The position numbers and the translations under genes were made by a program. Of a stretch of 23,187 nt of DNA, positions 3,379 through 23,187 are shown piece by piece (positions within the stretch are counted from its first letter, which is position 1; the number at the start of each line of letters is the position of its first letter). This DNA comes from a virus, in the UHGV virus genome UHGV-0778869; one strand, given 5' to 3'. The notes beneath the pieces were generated by a model that saw only the letters and a program-made list of their open reading frames with translations, was not told the origin of the DNA and made no database searches.

Positions 3379-4815
3379 TCAGAATCCTCCTTTCTTCTTG
3401 GACTGCGGTTCCTCGCGTTCACGGCGGCGCATTTCAGCAGACTGTTGGTCTGTGTCATAAATAGCGCCATTTGCCTGAATGCAATACACCGTGCCGGTAT
3501 TGCCATGACGATTGAGACGAAGGATTAGTTCTGTTTCACCAGGTGGAACACTGTCATCAAAAGCACCTTCACGATGGATCCCCACCCAATAATCGCAATC
3601 CTGTTCAATCTGCCCTGTATCGCGCGAGTCACTTGGTAATGGGCGTTTATTGGTTCTGCTTTCCAGTGCGCGGTTAAGCTGTGTCAGAAGCACAACAACG
3701 CAATCAAGCTCTTTGGCAAGGTTCTTCAGTCCTTTGGTGATCATGCCGTAAGCAAGGTCGTTGCGATCGGCCTTCTCAGCGGTCATTAGTGTCAGGTAAT
3801 CGACCAGAATCATGCCAACACATCCTTTTTCTCGCTTGATTCGACGGCTTTCGCTGACGATTTGAGCCAGAGATAATCCCGGCGTGTCGTCGATGTATAG
3901 CAGGTCGATTTCACTCAAGCGATTGGCTGTTTCGATCGCCCTGTTGAAGTCACCATCGTAATCACCCTGATAGCCGTCATCAGCGTCATTTGTCGCCGGA
4001 AGGTAAAAAATATTCGGGTTAACACCTGACTTCTGTCCTACCAGTTTTTCCAGTATCTGGTCGCCTGGCATTTCAAGGCTGAACATCAGAGCGGGCTTTT
4101 TCTCATGCACTGCGCAGTTGATTGCCATCTGGCTGTATAGCGTCGTTTTCCCCATCTTAGGGCGAGCGCCAATGACAAACAGAGAGCCTTTCACCAGGCC
4201 TTTCGGTGACAGCATCCTGTCCAGCGATGGGATCCCTGTGCTCATTCCTCGTTGTTCGCCTGACGGATCAAATCGCTTCTCAAGGTCGCTAACCCAGTCT
4301 TCCATGACCTCACCAAATGAGCGAAGGCCGCGACGCGATCCGGTTTTTGCATGGTCTGTCAGTTGCGTGAAAATCGCCTGAATAGCTTCGTACTTCTGCG
4401 TTGCAGTCATTCCGTTGCGGGAATAGAGCAATTCCGTCGCTTCAGTCATGCGGTTGATGGCGTAGCGTTCCATTGCGGTTTCACGAACCTGCATTGCATA
4501 GGCAACGATGTTTGCTGCGCTTGGCGTGTTCTTTGCGATCTCAGCGATATAAGCAAAACCGCCAACAGACGCCGTTAACGATTTACGCTCCAGTTCATCG
4601 AAAAGCGTCAGGCCATCTACTGGCTTTTGCTCACGGTGCATTCTGGTTATTTCTTCGAAAATGATTTTGTGTGGTCGGCTGTAAAATGAATCAGGCTTCA
4701 GCATCGCCAGAACTTTCTGGACGCGCTCACTGCTGTCATCATCCAGAAGCAATCCACCAATCACCGCCTGCTCTGCCTCGATGCTATGGGGCGGCGCATA
4801 AAAATTATCGGTCAT
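3379..4815 (-). CDS. DnaB-type replicative helicase (P22 gene 12-like)
   Basis: ATG at 4815 with GAGGG SD; N-terminal SIEAEQAVIGGLLLD (DnaB N-domain), Walker A GARPKMGKTT, Walker B ILVDYLTLM; overlaps the O-like gene end by 11 nt. Confidence 0.85.
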   Translation of the reverse strand: MTDNFYAPPHSIEAEQAVIGGLLLDDDSSERVQKVLAMLKPDSFYSRPHKIIFEEITRMHREQKPVDGLTLFDELERKSLTASVGGFAYIAEIAKNTPSAANIVAYAMQVRETAMERYAINRMTEATELLYSRNGMTATQKYEAIQAIFTQLTDHAKTGSRRGLRSFGEVMEDWVSDLEKRFDPSGEQRGMSTGIPSLDRMLSPKGLVKGSLFVIGARPKMGKTTLYSQMAINCAVHEKKPALMFSLEMPGDQILEKLVGQKSGVNPNIFYLPATNDADDGYQGDYDGDFNRAIETANRLSEIDLLYIDDTPGLSLAQIVSESRRIKREKGCVGMILVDYLTLMTAEKADRNDLAYGMITKGLKNLAKELDCVVVLLTQLNRALESRTNKRPLPSDSRDTGQIEQDCDYWVGIHREGAFDDSVPPGETELILRLNRHGNTGTVYCIQANGAIYDTDQQSAEMRRREREEPQSKKKGGF

Positions 4816-8517: not shown

Positions 8518-8742
8518 ATGAATCAGACATACATTCCATCATGCTTGAGAAATCTGCCAAAGCAGAAAGCAAAGCCCCGCAAGCAAGCCATAAAGGACGC
8601 TAAGGCAGAGGTTATTGATCAAGCAATACAATTGCTCAGGGAGGAGTTAAGAAGTGGCAAGCTCGAAGGAATGATGATGCCCTATCAGCGCGGATATCTT
8701 TCGGCGATTAGTAAGCTGGAAGTATTGAAGAGTGAATTATGA
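8518..8742 (+). CDS. Hypothetical protein (74 aa)
   Basis: ATG 8518 after AGGTAAG; MNQTYIPSCLRNLPKQKAKPRKQ...; ATGA overlap with the next gene. No family recognised. Confidence 0.5.
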   Translation: MNQTYIPSCLRNLPKQKAKPRKQAIKDAKAEVIDQAIQLLREELRSGKLEGMMMPYQRGYLSAISKLEVLKSEL

Positions 8743-9431
8743 ACTATCTGGAATTTCCGGATGGTTCATTGTTTTGGCAGCAAACCACTTATTTGAGAGG
8801 AATTAATATGTCATCAATCCGCTTAACTACGAGAATGAAAGAGAAAATCGCTCGTAACGCTTTAATTAAGTCTGGGGTTTTCACTGAGCTTGAAGAAGTA
8901 ACAAAGTTAAAGAGCCAGCTTGCACTTGACGCCAGAGTTATTGCGTTTGGCGGTAAAAAGAAAACTGAGGAAGTGGATCAGTTATCATCCAAGTTAGTAG
9001 CTATAAGTGAAGAACTTGAAAAACTGGGATGTTCATTTTACTCATACGATGTTCGTTCTACTTCAATTTATCTGACTGTATCTGGCAGAAGGGTTGGATG
9101 GCTTTCATATGGGGAAGACGGCAACGGCGAAGATATATTGCTCCCTACTCCGACCAAAGATAAATGCATGTTTGACGCAGAACACGAAATAACAAAAAGG
9201 TTTGATGAAATCTGCGCATTGCAACAAAAACTTGAAGCCAAGAAAAAGGATATCGAATCAAATGTATGGGCTGCTTTGAACTCAGTCACAACAGTTAAGC
9301 GACTTATTGAAGTTTGGTCTGAAAGCAAAGAATTGCTACCAAAAGAAGCAGATAAAGCAAGTACAGCACTTCCTGCTTTACGGGTAGAAGATTTGAATAA
9401 GATGATTGGACTTCCTTCCGAGGCCGCATAG
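8739..9431 (+). CDS. Hypothetical protein (230 aa; alternative start 8808)
   Basis: ORF with coupled start; internal ATG 8808 has a GAGAGG SD; stop lies inside the terminator hairpin. No family recognised. Confidence 0.55.
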   Translation: MNYLEFPDGSLFWQQTTYLRGINMSSIRLTTRMKEKIARNALIKSGVFTELEEVTKLKSQLALDARVIAFGGKKKTEEVDQLSSKLVAISEELEKLGCSFYSYDVRSTSIYLTVSGRRVGWLSYGEDGNGEDILLPTPTKDKCMFDAEHEITKRFDEICALQQKLEAKKKDIESNVWAALNSVTTVKRLIEVWSESKELLPKEADKASTALPALRVEDLNKMIGLPSEAA

Positions 9432-15025: not shown

Positions 15026-15244
15026 ATGTACTTGACACTTCAGGAGTGGAACGCTCGCCAGCGACGCCCAAGAAGCCTTGAAACAGTTCGTCGATGGGTG
15101 CGCGAGTGCAGGATATTCCCTCCTCCGGTTAAGGATGGAAGAGAGTATCTGTTCCACGAATCAGCGGTAAAGGTTGACTTAAATCGACCAGTAACAGGTA
15201 GCCTTTTGAAGAGGATCAGAAATGGGAAGAAGGCGAAGTCATGA
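15026..15244 (+). CDS. xis: Excisionase Xis (72 aa)
   Basis: MYLTLQEWNARQRRPRSLETVRRWVRECRIFPPPVKDGREYLFHESAVKVDLNRPVTGSLLKRIRNGKKAKS matches lambda Xis as recalled; overlaps int by 23 nt. Confidence 0.95.
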   Translation: MYLTLQEWNARQRRPRSLETVRRWVRECRIFPPPVKDGREYLFHESAVKVDLNRPVTGSLLKRIRNGKKAKS

Positions 15245-16292
15245 GCGCCGGGATTTACCCCCTAACCTTTATATAAGAAACAATGGATATTACTGCTACA
15301 GGGACCCAAGGACGGGTAAAGAGTTTGGATTAGGCAGAGACAGGAGGATAGCAATCACTGAAGCTATACAGGCCAACATTGAGTTATTTTCAGGACACAA
15401 ACACAAGCCTCTGACAGCGAGAATCAACAGTGATAATTCTGTTACGTTACATTCATGGCTTGATCGCTACGAAAAAATACTCGCCAGCAGAGGAATCAAG
15501 CAGAAGACACTCATAAATTACATGAGCAAAATTAAAGCAATAAGGAGGGGTCTGCCTGATGCTCCACTTGAAGACATCACCACAAAAGAAATTGCGGCAA
15601 TGCTCAATGGATATATAGACGATGGCAAGGCGGCGTCAGCCAAGTTAATCAGATCAACACTGAGCGATGCATTCCGAGAGGCAATAGCTGAAGGCCATAT
15701 AACAACAAACCCGGTCGCTGCCACTCGCGCAGCAAAATCAGAGGTAAGGAGATCAAGGCTTACGGCTGACGAATACCTGAAAATTTATCAAGCAGCAGAA
15801 TCATCACCATGTTGGCTCAGACTTGCAATGGAACTGGCTGTTGTTACCGGGCAGCGAGTTGGTGATTTATGCGAAATGAAGTGGTCTGATATCGTAGATG
15901 GATATCTTTATGTCGAGCAAAGCAAAACAGGCGTAAAAATTGCCATCCCAACAGCATTGCATGTTGATGCCCTCGGGATATCAATGAAGGAAACACTTGA
16001 TAAATGCAAAGAGATTCTTGGCGGAGAAACCATAATTGCATCTACTCGTCGTGAACCGCTTTCATCCGGCACAGTATCAAGGTATTTTATGCGCGCACGA
16101 AAAGCATCAGGTCTTTCCTTCGAAGGGGATCCGCCTACCTTTCACGAGTTGCGCAGTTTGTCTGCAAGACTCTATGAGAAGCAGATAAGCGATAAGTTTG
16201 CTCAACATCTTCTCGGGCATAAGTCGGACACCATGGCATCACAGTATCGTGATGACAGAGGCAGGGAGTGGGACAAAATTGAAATCAAATAA
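15222..16292 (+). CDS. int: Tyrosine integrase, lambda Int type (356 aa)
   Basis: MGRRRSHERRDLPPNLYIRNNGYYCYRDPRTGKEFGLGRDRRIAITEA... ...HELRSLSARLYEKQ...LLGHKSDTMASQYRDD: essentially lambda Int as recalled, with the R-H-R-Y catalytic region. Confidence 0.95.
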   Translation: MGRRRSHERRDLPPNLYIRNNGYYCYRDPRTGKEFGLGRDRRIAITEAIQANIELFSGHKHKPLTARINSDNSVTLHSWLDRYEKILASRGIKQKTLINYMSKIKAIRRGLPDAPLEDITTKEIAAMLNGYIDDGKAASAKLIRSTLSDAFREAIAEGHITTNPVAATRAAKSEVRRSRLTADEYLKIYQAAESSPCWLRLAMELAVVTGQRVGDLCEMKWSDIVDGYLYVEQSKTGVKIAIPTALHVDALGISMKETLDKCKEILGGETIIASTRREPLSSGTVSRYFMRARKASGLSFEGDPPTFHELRSLSARLYEKQISDKFAQHLLGHKSDTMASQYRDDRGREWDKIEIK

Positions 16293-16781: not shown

Positions 16782-18848
16782 TTATTGGAATGAAATACTG
16801 CACTCCATTTCAGTTGGTGACCCTGTATTGCTGTACGTTACAATAGTCCATGAGGTTGCAGATACCTTGTTTACGACCATGTATCTCCCAGTTCCTGGTG
16901 ACGTAAATGTATATCCTGCAGTCGACATGTCTGTCGGAAATGTTATCACCCAAACACCAGGTGATGTTTTGGATGCTAAGCATCCAACTGCTGATAACAG
17001 AACTCCTGAGCTATTTATATTTACAACACATGGTGAGTTTATAATCTTAACAACACCTGTATCAAGTATGTATGTATCAAACACTTTACCTATTCTGTTG
17101 CCATTTAGGTATGTAACTGCTGTTGCTGACAATCCAGCCCTGTTCCTTAAAACAGTTGAAACTCCAAGCCCTGAGCAATTAGTTACTTGCTGATCTGATA
17201 CCATTCCTGAAGTTGAACTAAATTGCTCCATAATTGCATCAACGGTATTTGACCCATTAAAGCAGTTGAATGAAACGTTCTCTAACTTATTCCTTCTCAC
17301 TGACTTTCCTGAGTCAGATCTAACGTTGCAGATTCTGTTGTACTGCCCTGGAGTGTTTATTTGTACAAATCCACCTCTTATCTTGTTGTCAAGACAGTCT
17401 GTTAATGATTCGCTATGGTCGTATAAATCATACGCTCTTTTAAAATCACCATTATTATTCATGAAGATTAAAACATCTTCTATGAGATTGTTACTACAAC
17501 CTTGAATAGCTATCACGCTATCATTACCATTAAAAGCACCATTTGCGATACTGGTAAATTTACCGCCAACAATCTTGCAGTTAGTGCATCCGCGTGAGAA
17601 CTTAATGTTATTGTTACCACCTATAGCGCCATCGACATTCCCAAGAACTGATGAATTATGAATTCCTTCACAGTTTATGAACTGAAAATCAGTAGTAGGA
17701 AATCCAATACCGTCAGCAGAAGTAGCATGATAATTAACAAGCAGCCCGTTTTCTGCGTATCCTCCCTGAACAAACCCACCCTTAACTCCAAGTATCTCCA
17801 TGTTACCACCGGCCTTAGATTGTCCTATAAACCTTGGCATGGTTATCTCAGGGTCAATAGCGCCGATAACGACAAAGTTACCATGGTTAGCTCCCTTATG
17901 ACCGGTTCCATCAAAGGTGCATCTAATGGCCCTTATCTTTGATCGTCTAGTTGAATCAGCAGATCCGTAAGAAGTATTTCCCATTCTTAATGGCGTCACA
18001 TCTGAATCACCATTGAAATACAGATCTCTTACTTCTATATTATTCCCTGTTAATTCTATTGCACCAAAGCTCTTATTAAACAATGATCCTGTCAAAGTTA
18101 TTCTAGCCTGATTGATGGCTAATATTTTTTTATTGTCAAGGCTTGATATTACGTTATTTGTTATTTTTACATTTATATCTATGTAAATCTCATCAAAATA
18201 TATTAACAACATACTGATTAGTGATGTTATATCACTGTCAGGTGATGTCCAGTCGCTAATTTTTGTGCTTCTAGACCGTGTTCTTTTTTCAAGATAACAA
18301 GTTACCCCGCCAATCACTGCGGAGTTTTGACTCAATGACGATATTGTTCCGCTTGCTGGAGGTGATATATAAAATAATCCAAATTCAGTGTGAATATCTG
18401 TTGTACCAACAGGAATAATATCTCCAACCTTTGCCGTAGCTCTTACATCATTAGGGAATACAACCCCTGGCAATATTTCGTCACGCATTTCATTGACGTA
18501 TACTCTTAACTGGTCAGGGTCATACTTCAACACATTAGGAAAATAGAACTGCTGCGCACCATATGCATCATAAACAGCCATCGAATGACCTTGCACGGTA
18601 ACGAATTTGGCAATCTGTCCGTTATATACCGGGTAACCAGCAGCGTTAATGATGATTGGTTGCGAAACAGGAACGTGAGAACCGTCTTCGTTCTCCACAT
18701 AAACCTGAATCTGGTTTTCAGGATTTACCGGATCCGTGTCAATTTTACCGATATAAATTTTGCCATTGGCTACGGCTTTAAAAGAACGAGCCATAGTGAA
18801 GAGTTGCGAAGGCATGCTTACCACAACATTTGCGGTGATATCTGACAT
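16782..18848 (-). CDS. Tailspike protein: P22-type N-terminal head-binding domain fused to a distinct beta-helix receptor-binding domain (about 688 aa)
   Basis: ATG 18848 with GGAG SD; N-terminus [43 protein letters not shown]...NVLKYDPDQ parallels P22 gp9 residues 1-110; the rest is Gly/Asn-rich repeats typical of right-handed beta-helix depolymerases and unlike P22 gp9. Confidence 0.85.
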
Positions 18849-18969
18849 TTCATTGCTCCAGACGAATGATATGATGCAACCATGATGTGATTGCATACCG
18901 AAATGGTACTATTGAGTATTTATCCAGTAGGTTACGATGCCATTCCACCCAACTGGTGAGGCATCAAGG

Positions 18970-19236
18970 ATGTACAGCAAATACGACGAGGCGCAGTTTC
19001 ACTTGAGACTTCCGCATGAACTCCACGCGAAAATTAAGCAGCGTGCGAAGATGAATAACAGGTCGCTGAACTCAGAGATAATTGCAGCGATTGAAGAATC
19101 ATTGGCTAAACAAAGCTCTGCATCTGTTTACATTGACGATGCAGAGCGTATGGCAGAACAACAATCTGAGATGGTTAAGAAAATTGTCTTTGATACGCTT
19201 AAGACCATGTATAGCAATAATAAAAAGGAAACATAG
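18970..19236 (+). CDS. mnt: Mnt-like ribbon-helix-helix repressor (about 88 aa)
   Basis: AQFHLRLPHELHAKIKQRAKMNNRSLNSEIIAAIEESL ... DAERMAEQQSEMVKKIVFDTLK parallels P22 Mnt as recalled; start uncertain (ATG 18970 or 18937). Confidence 0.75.
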   Translation: MYSKYDEAQFHLRLPHELHAKIKQRAKMNNRSLNSEIIAAIEESLAKQSSASVYIDDAERMAEQQSEMVKKIVFDTLKTMYSNNKKET

Positions 19237-19306
19237 AAATCTAGTTTCCGGCTAAAATGGCATTGCCTTCATGATATCCTGTGAAAAACTAAGGAGAGTT
19301 AACCAT

Positions 19307-19792
19307 ATGAAAAAGTCACTGTTAATTATCCCGCTTCTGCTGGTTGGATGCGCAAAAGTAAGTGACTATCAAGCAAGTTGCGAACAACGCTATCAAAAGC
19401 TTAGCGATATGGCTAATTGCCTTGATGCCAGTGTGAAGAACGACTCACGCATGGCATCAGCACCAACACCTAAGCTGTATGTCCTTGCTGCAAAGATGCT
19501 CGGGCAAAGTGTCGATGAAGGCAAGATAAGTGACGCACAGGCAAGACTTGAGCTTCAGAATCTTTATGTTCAATTACAAAGCCAAGAACAAGCCCAACAA
19601 ATAGCACAAAGCCAAGCATTCCAGCAGGCTTTATTGAATTATCAGGCTGTAAACACAATGCAAGCGATCGAGCAAAAAGCGAGACAGCCTGTTATAACTC
19701 AACCCTATCCAACACGAGTTGACACTTACACAAACTGCAATTCAGGATTTGGAAACACGGTAACATGCAACAGTAGCAGTAGCATCAGATAA
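19307..19792 (+). CDS. Lipoprotein (161 aa) with Gln-rich mature domain
   Basis: AAGGAGAG SD; signal peptide MKKSLLIIPLLLVGC with lipobox LVGC; located between mnt and the ejection-protein gene. Confidence 0.7.
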   Translation: MKKSLLIIPLLLVGCAKVSDYQASCEQRYQKLSDMANCLDASVKNDSRMASAPTPKLYVLAAKMLGQSVDEGKISDAQARLELQNLYVQLQSQEQAQQIAQSQAFQQALLNYQAVNTMQAIEQKARQPVITQPYPTRVDTYTNCNSGFGNTVTCNSSSSIR

Positions 19793-19813
19793 CAATCAGC
19801 AAAGGTATCGCCT

Positions 19814-19891
19814 ATGCAGAGGGATACGATAAACCTCGCGTTCTACATATTTGGTTTTTGCACGTTCCTGGTGTTTGAAAGGCTATTCTGA
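19814..19891 (+). CDS. Candidate hydrophobic mini-peptide (25 aa), weakly supported
   Basis: MQRDTINLAFYIFGFCTFLVFERLF; weak SD; 3' end overlaps the convergent ejection-protein gene. Confidence 0.2.
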   Translation: MQRDTINLAFYIFGFCTFLVFERLF

Positions 19892-21880
19892 CAACGAATC
19901 AGACTTCGCACCCTGCGTCAGTGCATTAATCGCTTTTTGCGCTTGCTGCATGGCTTTCTCAAACGCTGTCGATCCGCGTTGTGTGTTTGCCATTCGTAGC
20001 ATTGCATTTCTGAATGGCTCACTCTCATAGGCGCGAGTAAGAAGTCCGTAGCTTACCGCTGCGCCAGTTGTCGCCGGGTTCATTGCTGTCCCATACCCGA
20101 TAATGAACGGGATGGTTTGCTGCCCTGTTGGTGTTGTTACTGCCGCTTTTGCAGCCTGCTGCGTGGATTGCAGGTAGTTTTTCAATCCTTTCAGATAAGC
20201 AGCGTCCTGCCCCTTAAATGTGATGCCAGTCTGGTTTTGCAGGATGTTAAGCTGTCGAAGGAACTGATCAGGGGAACCCCCTGATTTCTCCATCGCCTTT
20301 CCAATGATGCCATTGCGCATTTGCGCCCTGCCAACACGACCAACTGAGTTATACAGCGTCTTAATTTCCGATTTGTTCTTGCTGAATAGCATGTTGTTGA
20401 CAACTTCCGGCGTCAGATCGCCTTTCATGAGAACATTCTTCAGCCTGGTATTCTTTAGTTTCGCCGCTTCGTTAGCGTAGACGGCATTGGCCTGCTGATA
20501 TTTACGGAGAGTATCGTTGCCAAGATTCTGACCAATGGCACCATTGATATCGTCTGTCATCGCCTTGTAAACGCGCTGAATGGCAGCATCGGAACGGTTT
20601 GGTAACACTGGTCGCTCCCCCTTCACGTCCATTCTGAACTGGCTGCGCAGATCGCTTAATTGCTTCAAATCCAGATTTACCGGACCATCAGGACTAGCAT
20701 TGCGAACAAGCTCATCACGATAGGACTGAAGTTTTGAAATAGTCTCGTTATCAGCAACCTTACCAAGCTTCTGCAGGTTAGATATTTCTGTATCAATCTG
20801 CTGAATTGCTCGCGCAGGCTGAATGTTTACTCCAGCCATAGCATTCTGAACCTGCTCCAGTCGATTACCGGCGGCACGACGAATTCCTGATGTTTTCGCT
20901 TTAAGGCTGTCAATAACAACCGCTGGATCATACTCACCGAATTTATCGGCAAATCTCTGCACCAACTGGCTTCTCGCTTCCTGTTGCGTTGCTCTCATTC
21001 CGCTTGTGCCAGCCAGGGGGATATTTTCTGCTGTAGTCTGCGCCATTTTCCCGACGCGGGAAGTAGGCTGTAACAGGTCTGTGGTGTGCAGAGGAACTCC
21101 TTCACGCTCTGCAAACCTGATAGCCTGTTGAGCTTCTGGTGCTATCGAACCACGAACACCACGATAAGCAGCACCTAATCCACGTCCGGCAGCGTTAATA
21201 GCACCGCCAGCCAGCACACCAACGCCTAAATCGGTGGCGAGTGCTTCCGCATCATCTTTCGCACTGTTTGCAGCAAGTGATCCAACTGCGTTTTCTGCTA
21301 GAAGACGAGTTGCAACCTGAGCAATTCGACCAGCAAGTGTTGGTGCCTGTGTTGCCGCTCTCTCAACGCCAGCAGGAGTGAGGTAAGGCAATGCTTCAGC
21401 AAATACCCTTCCCTCTGTCGTTTGTGGAGTCAGCGCGCCTTGCTGAAGGCCAAAGTCCTGCTCTAATCCCTGCGTTGTTACTCGTGGCGCTGGTTGATAT
21501 GTCCCATCGCCAATTCCGAGTTTACCGCCAGCCCAAGCCGCCGCGCTTGTTACAGCATCGGCAACTGATGCAGGTATGTTTGCCACGTTCACGCCAGCCT
21601 GCACCAGTCCGCGACCAGTTTCTTTCACGGCTTCGCCAAGATCAGACATAAATCCACTTTGCTGTGGTTGTTGCTGTGCTACTGGTTGCTGTGTCTCCAC
21701 TGGCTGCACAGATGGCAATGGATAGGCAGCATAGAAAGCTTGCTTAGCCTGCTCTGCATTTTCTCCGGCTTGCGGGGCAACGACTTCTTTGAAGTATTGC
21801 TCCTGAGCCTGCGCTTTTTGTTCTGGTGCTAACGCCTGATACTGTGGAGAGGCGATAACATCTTTCCATGCTTTAGCCAT
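19883..21880 (-). CDS. Ejection / DNA-transfer protein (P22 gp16 position, 665 aa)
   Basis: Large Ala/Gln/Gly-rich protein upstream of the immI-like region; start overlaps the upstream gene stop (TAATG). Confidence 0.7.
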   Translation of the reverse strand: MAKAWKDVIASPQYQALAPEQKAQAQEQYFKEVVAPQAGENAEQAKQAFYAAYPLPSVQPVETQQPVAQQQPQQSGFMSDLGEAVKETGRGLVQAGVNVANIPASVADAVTSAAAWAGGKLGIGDGTYQPAPRVTTQGLEQDFGLQQGALTPQTTEGRVFAEALPYLTPAGVERAATQAPTLAGRIAQVATRLLAENAVGSLAANSAKDDAEALATDLGVGVLAGGAINAAGRGLGAAYRGVRGSIAPEAQQAIRFAEREGVPLHTTDLLQPTSRVGKMAQTTAENIPLAGTSGMRATQQEARSQLVQRFADKFGEYDPAVVIDSLKAKTSGIRRAAGNRLEQVQNAMAGVNIQPARAIQQIDTEISNLQKLGKVADNETISKLQSYRDELVRNASPDGPVNLDLKQLSDLRSQFRMDVKGERPVLPNRSDAAIQRVYKAMTDDINGAIGQNLGNDTLRKYQQANAVYANEAAKLKNTRLKNVLMKGDLTPEVVNNMLFSKNKSEIKTLYNSVGRVGRAQMRNGIIGKAMEKSGGSPDQFLRQLNILQNQTGITFKGQDAAYLKGLKNYLQSTQQAAKAAVTTPTGQQTIPFIIGYGTAMNPATTGAAVSYGLLTRAYESEPFRNAMLRMANTQRGSTAFEKAMQQAQKAINALTQGAKSDSLSE

Positions 21881-23187
21881 TAATCACCCCATAGTGAAGA
21901 AAAGTTACTGCCAGTAGTAGATTGTTGCCCTGGCATATTCTGCACCGGCTCCTGATAATCAAACTGTTTTTTAACAGTGCTCAACTTGCTTTCAAGCTGA
22001 TTTCTAATCTTTCCGATAGAGTCACGAAAAGCCTTTTCACTCATTTTGGGGCTTAGGGCACCAACCGCATCGGATAATTTTTTACCCTCAGCATCTGAAA
22101 GAGCCCCCATACCCTTAAGGGACTGCACCATAGGAAGGAATGTTTGAGCTTTAAAGGTGTCGAGCCTTGCTTCAAAGTTAGCTGCATCAGAGCCAGGAAC
22201 TGTCGGAAACGCTGAGCGAATTCCTACTGCTTTTGAAAGGCCTGGGCTTTGCTCTATCTCGTTGAGAGAATCAAGCGCTGTGCTGAACGTATCAACTGCA
22301 CCCTGAGCGGCGGCCTGCCTGTCAGCGCGGGCTATGTCAGCCTTTTGCCGAACATCTGCCTGTTTCTGTTTTAGCTCTTCAAGCTTTAACTGATTGCTTT
22401 CTCTGGCTATCTGTCTGTCCAGAGCCTTTTCTTGTAATTCTGCTCTTTGTATTTCTCGGGAAAGAGCAGCATTCTGTGCGCTGATGTTCTGTCCACGTAT
22501 CTGGATGTCCTGACCTCGAGCTGTTAGTGCTTCTCCTGCCTGATTGCTGCGGATTGTCTCTGCCAGTCTGCCTCGGTCAATCTCACGACCAGCCATCTTG
22601 TCCTGAACATTGAAGTAATCAATCGGACCAAGAGCAGCCATTCCAAGGTGATCAACAAACTCACCAAATCCTGAAGGATTCTGCTGATACATCTGAGCAA
22701 CGTTGTTAGGGTCAACACCGACGCGATTCAGTTCCTTGGCGTTGTTTTGCAGCCATGATTGCATTGCTTCTGGAGATGATGATGCAAGGCGAGCGCCAGC
22801 CGCTAAGGTGCCGATAGAATTGCGCTGGTCTTCATCAATGAACCCCATGCCTTTACGAATAGATTCAATCTGGTCTGGATATTGAGTAGCCAACTGACGC
22901 AAAGCTCCGCGATCACCAGACGCATAACCCCTCCGTAGCGTAGTTCCGCCATGCGTAGCGGTGCTGAACGAACGGAAGTGCTCCCGACCGAGCGAGATAC
23001 CCACGAGGAAGCAAGGCGGAGGGCTTTGCCCACACCGCACATAAACGCTTGACTCTGCGCAGCAGTGCCAAACACCGCTTTTTGACCGAGCGACCGAGGG
23101 TGCACGGAGAGAGTGAAGCTGAGCGGAGGATGGCGGATGCGTAGCGTAGGAGCGTGGCTGCGGTGGTCTGAGCATAGCGAAGTCCAC
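21880..23187 (-). CDS. Ejection protein (P22 gp20 position), N-terminus beyond the window edge
   Basis: Open frame to the window edge; residues encoded from about 22900 downward are protein-like (coiled coil, Ala/Gln-rich); the segment 22900-23187 is compositionally anomalous. Confidence 0.6.
   Translation of the reverse strand: MDFAMLRPPQPRSYATHPPSSAQLHSLRAPSVARSKSGVWHCCAESSVYVRCGQSPPPCFLVGISLGREHFRSFSTATHGGTTLRRGYASGDRGALRQLATQYPDQIESIRKGMGFIDEDQRNSIGTLAAGARLASSSPEAMQSWLQNNAKELNRVGVDPNNVAQMYQQNPSGFGEFVDHLGMAALGPIDYFNVQDKMAGREIDRGRLAETIRSNQAGEALTARGQDIQIRGQNISAQNAALSREIQRAELQEKALDRQIARESNQLKLEELKQKQADVRQKADIARADRQAAAQGAVDTFSTALDSLNEIEQSPGLSKAVGIRSAFPTVPGSDAANFEARLDTFKAQTFLPMVQSLKGMGALSDAEGKKLSDAVGALSPKMSEKAFRDSIGKIRNQLESKLSTVKKQFDYQEPVQNMPGQQSTTGSNFSSLWGD

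What the first reader, a model, noticed from the sequence alone, without database searches (positions are those of the whole stretch)
19271..19891. Lipoprotein in the sieA-equivalent slot between mnt and the ejection-protein gene
P22 carries the superinfection-exclusion gene sieA between gene 16 and mnt. Here that slot holds a 161-aa lipoprotein (lipobox LVGC) with a Gln-rich mature domain, plus a possible 25-aa hydrophobic peptide. Phage lipoproteins in lysogenic-conversion slots (Cor, Llp) block receptors or DNA entry, so this may be an exclusion protein of a different type from SieA.
Basis: partly seen in the sequence, partly recalled or inferred. Interest (0 to 1): 0.6.

Follow-up and report, generated by a model that had tools for sequence, protein, structure and literature searches.

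The report
Lipoprotein cassette in P22 sieA slot
A real, conserved gene for an outer-membrane-type lipoprotein sits exactly where phage P22 keeps its superinfection-exclusion gene sieA and shares sieA's upstream leader, which makes it a good but untested candidate for a new kind of phage-blocking protein.

Summary
Window 19307-19792 (+) encodes a 161-aa protein with a textbook type II signal peptide (MKK, hydrophobic core, LVGC). It is under strong purifying selection (dN/dS 0.05-0.10). It matches PHROG 6067 ("unknown function") end to end, and no Pfam, NCBIfam or PADLOC model.

In about 105 loci from at least 12 enterobacterial genera the gene always lies in the "ant moron" of P22-like phages. 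There it is co-directional with mnt and convergent with the gene-16 ejection-protein gene. No locus also carries SieA.

In some relatives the DNA is about 99% identical to P22 from orf59a up to the ribosome-binding site, and the lipoprotein ORF then replaces the sieA ORF exactly. The shared leader (TATCCTGnnnAAAACTAAGGAG) precedes 13 unrelated cassettes in this slot. Twelve have a hydrophobic (signal-peptide or transmembrane-like) segment. Only SieA has been characterised.

The mature protein is predicted to be a disulfide-stapled four-helix bundle, a Gln-rich helix and a Cys-x9-Cys C-terminal motif, with no informative structural relative. Remote relatives include chromosomal lipoproteins.

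An exclusion function is a well-supported inference from position. It has not been demonstrated, and the mechanism is open.

The parts
19268..19296 (+). Leader shared with P22 sieA (TTCATGATATCCTGTGAAAAACTAAGGAG). It contains an extended -10-like TGnTATCCT (19272-19280; my inference) and the Shine-Dalgarno AAGGAG (19291-19296).
   Evidence: Alignment with P22 and L088 and upstream classes. The same leader precedes 13 unrelated cassettes in the same slot. The consensus promoter scan found no two-hexamer promoter here.
19307..19792 (+). Lipoprotein gene, 161 aa plus stop. A member of PHROG 6067 (unknown function).
   Evidence: dN/dS 0.05-0.10.
19307..19351 (+). Type II signal peptide MKKSLLIIPLLLVG plus the lipidated Cys15. 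The +2 residue is Ala, which predicts sorting to the outer membrane.
   Evidence: Read from the sequence. The lipobox is present in 78 of 78 homologues and +2 is never Asp. The Lol +2 rule is established knowledge for Enterobacterales.
19352..19591 (+). Conserved N-terminal four-helix-bundle domain (residues 16-95), with invariant Q22, C25, C38, Y58 and A79. C25 and C38 are a probable disulfide.
   Evidence: The AF2 model has block-mean pLDDT of about 86-97 for mature residues 1-80. Conservation profile. Superfamily invariants.
19592..19690 (+). Gln-rich part of the long helix (residues 96-128). Low model confidence and more variable in sequence.
19727..19774 (+). C-terminal T-x-C-x9-C motif (C144 and C154), predicted as a beta-hairpin in one low-confidence model and as coil in the other. 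Probable second disulfide. It comes in two exchangeable sequence types (...NSSSNIR or ...CxSY).
18970..19236 (+). mnt-type repressor gene (Arc plus Repressor_Mnt domains), 70 nt upstream on the same strand. The ORF could also start at 18937.
   Evidence: No terminator was predicted between it and the lipoprotein gene.
19814..19891 (+). 25-aa hydrophobic ORF (MQRDTINLAFYIFGFCTFLVFERLF). It overlaps the stop of gene 16 by 9 nt and travels with the window-type gene 16, not with the lipoprotein.
19883..21880 (-). Gene-16-type ejection (DNA transfer) protein, convergent with the lipoprotein gene.
   Evidence: annotations of homologues. Nearly identical lipoproteins sit next to at least three unrelated gp16 types.
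21880..22920 (-). Gene-20-type ejection protein (PF16928). Homology to relatives stops at 22920.
16782..18896 (-). Tailspike with the P22 head-binding domain. It forms the other border of the ant moron.

Best explanation
The gene encodes a lipoprotein predicted to be anchored in the inner leaflet of the outer membrane and to face the periplasm. It is an accessory (moron) cassette of P22-like temperate phages. It occupies the same expression site as sieA and is an alternative to it.

The most likely function is superinfection exclusion at the cell envelope. By this reading it interferes with DNA delivery by incoming P22-like phages at the outer-membrane or periplasmic stage. Possible targets are assembly of the gp7/gp20/gp16 conduit, penetration of peptidoglycan, or the outer-membrane secondary receptor. 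SieA, in contrast, acts at the inner membrane.

Shown here: the gene is real and under selection; it has lipoprotein signals; its synteny is conserved; the ORF swap with sieA is exact; the leader is shared; it never co-occurs with SieA in the loci examined.

Inferred: lipidation and outer-membrane sorting; expression in lysogens; the exclusion phenotype itself; the step that is blocked.
For: 1. The gene is real and conserved.

2. Lipobox and +2 residue in 78 of 78 homologues, plus four conserved Cys typical of periplasmic proteins.

3. It always lies between mnt or the tailspike gene and the convergent gene 16, in Escherichia/Shigella, Salmonella, Citrobacter, Serratia, Morganella, Providencia, Proteus, Tatumella, Yersinia, Pectobacterium and Xenorhabdus.

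4. It is on the strand opposite to the late operon. In Serratia and Proteus it starts only 17-18 nt after mnt. P22 mnt is annotated as a maintenance-of-lysogeny gene, and its expression from the prophage is established knowledge.

5. The ORF replaces sieA exactly behind the P22 leader. 75-82 of the 85 nt upstream of P22 sieA are retained upstream of about 25 lipoprotein copies. That 85-bp piece plus sieA sufficed for exclusion in PMC10883804.

6. No SieA of type A or B occurs in any lipoprotein locus. The sets of phage records are disjoint.

7. The same leader precedes 13 unrelated cassettes in this slot. Twelve have a strongly hydrophobic segment, and the only characterised one, SieA, is an exclusion protein.

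8. The gene is dispensable: IME10 and P22 lack it.

9. Nearly identical lipoproteins sit beside at least three unrelated gp16 types and at least five Mnt types. This fits a broadly acting module rather than a partner of the phage's own ejection proteins. P22 and HS1 SieA are similarly broad.

10. Prophage lipoproteins that exclude phages are an established kind.
Against: No experiment or transcript data exist for any family member.

There is no sequence or fold similarity to any known exclusion or defence protein.

In the window itself only the last 30 nt or so of the P22 leader is retained (55 of 85), and no canonical promoter was found. Expression there rests on read-through from mnt or on an inferred extended -10.

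Remote homologues occur in ordinary chromosomal neighbourhoods and in other contexts. The fold may therefore have a housekeeping envelope role unrelated to phages.

The N-terminal domain is highly conserved across genera, while the ejection proteins are very diverse. This fits a conserved host target better than direct binding to gp16 or gp20.

The mutual exclusivity with SieA is partly phylogenetic: 80 of the loci are 96-99% identical E. coli-type copies.
Confidence: 0.5

Rival explanations
1. It is a lysogenic-conversion envelope factor that benefits the host for reasons unrelated to phage exclusion. Examples would be resistance to serum, lysozyme or stress, or modulation of an outer-membrane or peptidoglycan component. 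By this reading it is a phage-borne copy of a housekeeping lipoprotein family.
For: The exhaustive profile search finds 247 representative relatives with the same plan. At least one lies in a purely chromosomal neighbourhood (uvrC, UDG, Zn-peptidase, EarP, bio genes). Another lies in Pectobacterium next to a holE-like gene, between dsbB and the min genes. The N-terminal domain is strongly conserved across genera, as expected for a conserved host target. The gene is in 186 of 5426 complete E. coli genomes.
Against: The exact swap with sieA behind the same leader, and the absence of co-occurrence with SieA, point to an equivalent selective role. The tight family is confined to one slot of one phage type. 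No similarity to Bor, TraT, MliC, PliC or Ivy models was found in Pfam.
Confidence: 0.28
2. It is a Spackle-like inhibitor: a periplasmic, outer-membrane-tethered protein that inhibits the peptidoglycan hydrolase carried by incoming virions. That hydrolase would be P22 gp4 (from my own recollection, not tested here) or the SLT domain present in some gp16 homologues. This is a specific sub-mechanism of exclusion.
For: The gp16 homologues next to the gene in Serratia carry PF01464 SLT. PGAP names the window-type gp16 a lytic-transglycosylase-domain protein. The protein is predicted to be periplasmic and disulfide-bonded, with a long helix that could span the distance from the outer membrane to the murein layer. 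Chromosomal relatives would parallel the chromosomal lysozyme-inhibitor lipoproteins (established knowledge of MliC and PliC).
Against: Pfam finds no SLT domain in the window's own gp16. The same lipoprotein sits next to unrelated gp16 types. There is no fold or sequence similarity to Spackle, Ivy, MliC or PliC among the reported hits.
Confidence: 0.12
3. It serves the phage's own lytic cycle or release. For example, it might prevent progeny from ejecting DNA into debris or outer-membrane vesicles, or tune lysis, rather than protect the lysogen.
For: T5 Llp has such a dual role (established knowledge). The gene lies inside the late-operon region.
Against: It is on the strand opposite to late transcription and is coupled to mnt. 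It is absent from viable relatives such as P22, IME10 and Sf6. It is not in the lysis cassette.
Confidence: 0.07
4. It is a chance ORF or a decaying gene with no function.
For: None beyond the lack of annotation.
Against: dN/dS is 0.05-0.10. There are about 105 clusters across many genera with invariant Cys and lipobox. The N-terminal domain gives a high-confidence fold prediction.
Confidence: 0.01

Closest known systems
SieA of Salmonella phage P22 (types A-C; Leavitt et al. 2024, PMC10883804)
   Same: Same slot (between gene 16 and mnt/gene 9), same strand, similar length (164 versus 161 aa). In some prophages it has the identical upstream DNA and ribosome-binding site. It acts in the envelope and is an accessory gene. 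The two do not co-occur in the loci examined.
   Different: SieA is a polytopic inner-membrane protein without a signal peptide and carries the motif FxRYPxEAxxFNK. This protein has one cleavable lipoprotein signal and a soluble helical domain, and no sequence similarity to SieA. It is predicted to sit at the outer membrane, so any block would be at an earlier step.
Receptor-blocking prophage lipoproteins: T5 Llp, Cor of phi80/N15/HK022, Lpp021/Lpp010 of mEpimmI phages (PMC11893012)
   Same: Phage-encoded lipoproteins with a lipobox. Those that have been tested exclude superinfecting phages at the outer membrane.
   Different: No homology: the PHROG Cor match has E = 0.03 and covers only the signal peptide. 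Those proteins are much smaller by my recollection (not checked here) and block protein receptors (FhuA, OmpA, LamB) of siphoviruses. P22-like podoviruses bind O-antigen first.
Ltp of Streptococcus phage TP-J34
   Same: A prophage lipoprotein that blocks DNA injection after adsorption, with a helical soluble domain tethered to a membrane (cited; structure from established knowledge).
   Different: Its host is Gram-positive. It has an HTH-repeat fold and targets the tape-measure protein. No sequence or fold match was reported here.
T4 Spackle (Sp)
   Same: A small secreted helical protein that excludes phages by acting in the periplasm on the incoming virion's cell-puncturing lysozyme (established knowledge). 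It is a possible mechanistic analogue.
   Different: It is not a lipoprotein and comes from a lytic phage. No PHROG or Pfam match.
PHROG 6067 and an un-named proteobacterial lipoprotein superfamily
   Same: Full-length member of PHROG 6067 (E = 8e-109). It shares the lipobox, the Q22/C25/C38/Y58/A79 core and the C-terminal Cys motif with 247 remote representatives.
   Different: Neither group has a known function or a Pfam model. The phage clade has a linker about 45 residues long and rich in Gln, where remote members have 15-20 residues.

Membership tests
Bacterial lipoproteins (type II signal peptide, PROSITE PS51257-type rule) | Basic n-region, hydrophobic h-region, and lipobox [LVI][ASTVI][GAS]C with the Cys within the first 35 residues or so | tested here: met
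   MKK / SLLIIPLLLV / LVGC, with Cys15. A lipobox was found in 78 of 78 homologues. Two homologues are annotated as lipoprotein by their depositors. SignalP and LipoP were not available.
Bacterial lipoproteins (type II signal peptide, PROSITE PS51257-type rule) | Actual diacylglyceryl modification and cleavage by Lsp (globomycin sensitivity, palmitate labelling) | not testable with these tools
   Needs wet-lab work.
Outer-membrane (Lol-sorted) lipoproteins of Enterobacterales | No Asp at position +2 (the inner-membrane retention signal) | tested here: met
   +2 is Ala in the window. Across 78 homologues it is Ala (70), Val (7) or Thr (1).
SieA superinfection-exclusion proteins | Sequence homology to SieA type A, B or C, including the motif FxRYPxEAxxFNK | tested here: not met
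   tblastn with P22 SieA and HS1 SieA finds nothing in any lipoprotein locus. The motif is absent from the sequence.
SieA superinfection-exclusion proteins | Polytopic inner-membrane protein (3-4 transmembrane helices) | tested here: not met
   The only hydrophobic segment is the signal peptide. The rest is predicted to be a soluble helical domain.
SieA superinfection-exclusion proteins | Location between gene 16 and mnt/gene 9, on the mnt strand, behind the PsieA leader | tested here: met
SieA superinfection-exclusion proteins | Blocks DNA injection by P22-like phages when expressed alone | not testable with these tools
   No published assay was found.
Cor / Llp receptor-blocking lipoproteins | Homology to the Cor or Llp families | tested here: not met
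   PHROG 1119 (Cor) gives E = 0.033 over residues 1-31 only, which is the signal peptide. No Pfam hit.
Cor / Llp receptor-blocking lipoproteins | Inactivation of an outer-membrane protein receptor (FhuA) | not testable with these tools
   It could be tested with phages that depend on FhuA, OmpA or OmpC.
PHROG 6067 | Full-length profile match | tested here: met
   E = 7.7e-109, residues 1-161 against profile positions 1-161 of 161.
Phage moron (Hendrix/Juhala sense; the 'ant moron' of Villafane et al. 2008) | Present or absent between conserved genes in otherwise related phages, and not needed for morphogenesis | tested here: met
   IME10 has mnt followed directly by the 25-aa ORF and gene 16. 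P22 has sieA in its place. Sf6 lacks the whole region.
Phage moron (Hendrix/Juhala sense; the 'ant moron' of Villafane et al. 2008) | Own promoter and terminator | tested here: inconclusive
   No consensus promoter or terminator was found. An extended -10-like TGnTATCCT in the shared leader is my inference. Hairpins follow the gene in the Morganella and Providencia loci.
Known anti-phage defence systems (PADLOC) | Match to any defence-protein model | tested here: not met
   0 families at E <= 1.

The most novel reading that the evidence does not exclude
P22-like phages carry a plug-in site for envelope-acting exclusion genes. A short portable leader (extended -10 plus Shine-Dalgarno) lies downstream of mnt, and at least 13 unrelated cassettes for small envelope-targeted (hydrophobic-segment) proteins are exchanged behind it. 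The 161-aa lipoprotein is the commonest occupant in the sample. It would be a new kind of exclusion protein for podoviruses: tethered to the outer membrane and derived from a chromosomal lipoprotein superfamily. It would stop the ejection-protein conduit or murein penetration before the inner-membrane step at which SieA acts.
Probability: 0.3. Interest if true: 0.7.

Novelty: new variant of a known kind. Interest (0 to 1): 0.55.

Why it matters
Only one occupant of this slot, SieA, has ever been characterised. Yet the lipoprotein is about nine times more frequent than HS1-type SieA in complete E. coli genomes: 186 versus 21 of 5426, by near-identity DNA search.

If the lipoprotein excludes phages, it would give an outer-membrane or periplasmic handle on how P22, Sf6 and HK620-type podoviruses build their trans-envelope DNA conduit, a process that is still poorly understood. 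It would also help explain resistance of many E. coli and Shigella lysogens to related phages, which matters for phage therapy and typing.

The shared-leader observation turns about a dozen further unknown families of small envelope-targeted (hydrophobic-segment) proteins into directly testable candidates.

If the protein instead has a host-physiology role, it defines an un-named lipoprotein superfamily, without a Pfam model, that is widespread in Proteobacteria.

Tried and rejected
- Sequence-family searches. Pfam, NCBIfam and PADLOC give nothing for the lipoprotein. A sub-threshold GspK match (18.6 bits against a cut-off of 130) explains one spurious "GspK" annotation.
- PDB by sequence profile: only noise.
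- Mimicry of an ejection-protein domain. The family HMM was run against all ORFs of 16 loci and finds only the family itself.
- Co-adaptation with the neighbouring gp16: rejected, because 96-99% identical lipoproteins sit beside at least three unrelated gp16 types.
- The 25-aa ORF as part of the module: rejected. Its coding status is doubtful, because the VSe13 copy has 7 changed residues of 25, including Gly to Arg in the hydrophobic core.
- Terminator, promoter and RNA structure or family scans around the gene: nothing significant.
- Literature searches by topic and by accession number: no study of this protein.
- The 173-aa reading from ATG 19271: rejected in favour of 19307.
Full report

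Yes. The ORF 19271..19792 (+) exists. I take the ATG at 19307 as the start, for three reasons. It is preceded by AAGGAG at 19291-19296. Homologues from other genera begin at the equivalent MKK/VKK. The 36 nt upstream, including the ATG at 19271, are part of an untranslated leader that P22 has in front of sieA.

The product is 161 aa. It starts MKK-SLLIIPLLLV-G-C, which is a basic n-region, a hydrophobic core and the lipobox LVGC with Cys15. In 78 full-length homologues a lipobox is always present. The +2 residue is Ala (70), Val (7) or Thr (1), never Asp, and four further cysteines are conserved. By the Lol sorting rule (established knowledge) this predicts an outer-membrane lipoprotein facing the periplasm with two disulfides. 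SignalP and LipoP were not available, so this is a rule-based call, backed by conservation and by two depositor annotations as "lipoprotein".

Gln makes up 21 of 146 mature residues. The gene is not a chance ORF. dN/dS against close relatives is 0.05-0.10. It matches PHROG 6067 ("unknown function") end to end at E = 8e-109. The word-indexed search finds about 105 clusters, all in Enterobacterales and all "hypothetical".

**2. Where it sits**

The window is an Sf6/IME10-like member of the P22-like phages (Lederbergvirus). The features run in this order:
- tailspike, 16782..18896 (-), with the head-binding domain
- mnt, 18970..19236 (+), with Arc and Repressor_Mnt domains
- the lipoprotein gene (+)
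- a 25-aa ORF (+)
- the gene-16 homologue, 19883..21880 (-)
- the gene-20 homologue (-, PF16928)

P22 has the same plan with sieA in place of the lipoprotein gene. This region is the "ant moron" of Villafane et al. 2008, who found ten versions of it in sixteen genomes.

The lipoprotein gene occupies this position and orientation in every locus examined:
- phages Gally, vB_EcoP-720R6, VSe13 and Proteus phage Brookers
- 80 IMG/VR contigs
- prophages of Morganella, Serratia, Tatumella, Providencia, Yersinia, Pectobacterium and Xenorhabdus, and a divergent E. coli copy

It is present in 186 of 5426 complete E. coli genomes. It is always chromosomal and always annotated as hypothetical.

**3. It is an alternative cassette to sieA**

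Seventeen of the 95 homology-found loci have the order mnt, then orf59a (98% identical to P22 orf59a), then the lipoprotein. Aligning one of them, L088, with P22 shows about 99% identity from orf59a through the mnt terminator and the putative PsieA, up to the Shine-Dalgarno CTAAGGAG. After that point the sieA ORF is replaced by the lipoprotein ORF.

Of the 85 nt upstream of P22 sieA, 75-82 are identical upstream of about 25 lipoprotein copies. That 85-bp piece, together with sieA, sufficed for exclusion when moved to galK (PMC10883804). The window keeps 55 of the 85, essentially the last 30 nt, TTCATGATATCCTGTGAAAAACTAAGGAG.

No lipoprotein locus contains SieA of type A (P22) or type B (E. coli HS1). 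The 41 phage records with SieA and the 5 with the lipoprotein do not overlap. IME10 has neither gene: there mnt is followed directly by the 25-aa ORF and gene 16. Near-identity DNA search finds HS1-type SieA in only 21 complete E. coli genomes.

**4. The leader marks a cassette site**

I searched viral contigs for TATCCTGnnnAAAACTAAGGAG and obtained 117 new loci. All of the loci are the same slot:
- gene 20 lies on the opposite strand 2.3-3.7 kb downstream (82 of 82 where detectable)
- the tailspike head-binding domain lies upstream on the opposite strand (95 of 95)
- mnt lies upstream on the same strand (90 of 90)

The ORF that starts just after the leader falls into 13 mutually unrelated families:

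| Family | Loci (of 116) |
|---|---|
| The lipoprotein | 23 |
| 109-aa protein, N-terminal hydrophobic segment, first type | 18 |
| 129-aa protein, N-terminal hydrophobic segment (signal-peptide-like) | 16 |
| 109-aa protein, N-terminal hydrophobic segment, second type | 14 |
| 62-aa protein with two hydrophobic segments | 10 |
| SieA (8 type A, 1 type B) | 9 |
| 75-aa protein with hydrophobic segments | 6 |
| 140-aa protein with no hydrophobic segment | 5 |
| Five rarer families | 2-4 each |

Twelve of the 13 have a strongly hydrophobic segment, N-terminal in 11. Apart from SieA, each either matches a PHROG of unknown function or no PHROG at all. None has a Pfam match except one YobH-like hit.

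The leader contains TGnTATCCT (window 19272-19280). I read this as an extended -10 element, which would make the leader a self-contained promoter plus ribosome-binding site. This is an inference. The two-hexamer scan finds no promoter there.

Not all lipoprotein copies use this leader. Gally-type and other upstream classes exist. In Serratia and Proteus the gene starts 17-18 nt after mnt, apparently as an operon. In the window the gap is 70 nt with no predicted terminator.

**5. What the protein looks like**

With a 79-sequence alignment, AlphaFold2 gives block-mean pLDDT of about 86-97 for mature residues 1-80. That part is a compact four-helix bundle. A long helix follows, with confidence falling through the Gln-rich part, and then a low-confidence tail. 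An earlier, low-confidence model drew the C-terminal T-x-C-x9-C segment as a beta-hairpin.

Conservation is highest in the bundle and lowest in the C-terminal third. The C-terminus comes in two exchangeable types (...NSSSNIR or ...CxSY) joined to identical middle segments, so there is mosaicism inside the gene.

**6. A wider family**

The exhaustive profile search finds 247 representatives with E <= 1e-3, of which 97 have E <= 1e-10. They are 125-170-aa proteins with the same plan:
- a lipobox
- a bundle with invariant Q22, C25, C38, Y58 and A79
- a short variable linker
- a C-terminal Cys motif

All of these proteins are unnamed.

Their contexts differ:
- One lies among ordinary chromosomal genes (uvrC, UDG, a Zn-peptidase, EarP, the bio genes).
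- One lies in Pectobacterium peruviense next to a holE-like gene, between dsbB and minCDE. It may be a prophage relic.
- One lies near a small-terminase gene.
- One lies in an island with copper-resistance genes and ThsB-TIR and SLATT genes.

The phage clade is therefore one branch of an undescribed lipoprotein superfamily. It is distinguished by a Gln-rich linker of about 45 residues.

**7. How it most likely works**

Shown here:
- a selected gene with lipoprotein signals
- a fixed position in the mnt-strand unit of the ant moron
- an exact swap with sieA behind a shared leader
- no co-occurrence with SieA in the loci examined
- dispensability

Inferred:
- The gene is expressed from the prophage, like mnt and sieA.
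- The product is lipidated, goes to the outer membrane and faces the periplasm.
- It prevents productive DNA delivery by incoming P22-like phages.

The predicted location differs from that of SieA. I therefore expect a block at an earlier step: the secondary outer-membrane receptor (OmpA or OmpC for Sf6, from established knowledge), crossing of the murein layer, or assembly of the gp7/gp20/gp16 conduit.

Two observations shape this view. Nearly identical lipoproteins sit beside at least three unrelated gp16 types and at least five Mnt types. The bundle is strongly conserved across genera. Together they favour a conserved target, either a host envelope component or a conserved virion part, over type-specific binding to gp16 or gp20.

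I put about 0.5 on exclusion of some kind. A Spackle-like inhibition of virion muralytic activity is one specific version. Some neighbouring gp16 homologues carry an SLT domain, but the window's gp16 shows none in Pfam.

The main rival, at about 0.28, is an envelope-modifying conversion function unrelated to phages. The chromosomal relatives make this plausible.

**8. Comparison with what is known**

The protein works like SieA in genetic logic but is not a SieA. The homology, topology and motif tests all fail.

It resembles Llp, Cor and the mEpimmI Lpp proteins only in being a prophage lipoprotein. Nothing in the searchable literature addresses it. Villafane et al. include the E. coli B7A prophage in their figure of ant morons, and the complete B7A genome carries this gene. 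I could not see the figure to check how it is drawn there.

**9. Verdict**

If it does act in exclusion, it would be a new variant of a known kind, namely prophage lipoproteins and exclusion morons. It has a new fold family and probably acts at a new step. Interest is moderate to good. The main reasons are that the gene is common, that it is directly testable with existing P22, Sf6 and HK620 tools, and that the shared leader exposes a dozen further candidates.

Noticed in passing
window 19814-19891 (+); also L010 about 3400-3480: The 25-aa hydrophobic ORF (MQRDTINLAFYIFGFCTFLVFERLF) overlaps the stop of gene 16 by 9 nt. It is kept, with its own GGAGG ribosome-binding site, in phage IME10, which lacks the lipoprotein. 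It occurs only with the window-type gene 16. The VSe13 copy has 7 of 25 residues changed, including Gly to Arg in the core, so coding status is uncertain.
   Followed up: partly
window 19275-19296; loci L103-L219: The leader TATCCTGnnnAAAACTAAGGAG precedes 13 unrelated cassettes in the same slot of P22-like phages. Twelve have a hydrophobic segment, and all but SieA are of unknown function (six match PHROGs of unknown function). These are candidates for further exclusion or envelope factors.
   Followed up: partly
window 22921-23187: The last 267 nt or so are not homologous to the N-terminus of gene 20 in relatives; homology stops at 22920. The stretch looks G+C-rich with repeated GCGTAGC/GAGCGA-like words, has no near match in 5426 E. 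coli genomes, and gives an implausible Pro/Ser/Arg/Cys-rich N-terminus to the gene-20 ORF. Its origin is unexplained.
   Followed up: partly
window 15222-16292 (+) and 16782-18896 (-): The integrase gene lies next to and convergent with the tailspike gene, 490 bp apart, with no host DNA, no gtr or oac conversion genes and no tRNA between them. The window is therefore in the phage (attP-intact) permutation, not an integrated prophage.
   Followed up: no
window 18897-19236: mnt is present, but no arc or ant gene lies between it and the tailspike gene. It is unclear what this Mnt represses. ST64T-type ant morons are similar.
   Followed up: no
window 8739-9431 (+): An early-region protein carries a full Nmad5 domain (nucleotide modification associated domain 5, E = 9e-69).
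   Followed up: no
L220 6001-6426; L221 6001-6411; L225 6001-6888; L226 2750-3139: Remote homologues of the lipoprotein (247 representatives) form an un-named superfamily without a Pfam model. Some are chromosomal. One has two tandem copies of the N-terminal domain (P0255, 295 aa) and lies in an island with ThsB-TIR and SLATT genes.
   Followed up: partly
NZ_CP100876.1 1952070-1952282 (hit H92); proteins P0093, P0094: The first 213 nt of the lipoprotein gene, or its first 30 codons or so, occur fused to other reading frames (a 'DNA transfer protein' and a 'recombinase'). This suggests recombination break-points inside or next to the cassette.
   Followed up: no
L007, L011 versus window 19580-19792: There is mosaicism inside the gene. 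Serratia and Citrobacter copies share an identical middle segment (SERAQQIAQSQAFQQALLNYQAVNTMQAIEQKARQP) but carry different C-terminal Cys-motif modules.
   Followed up: no
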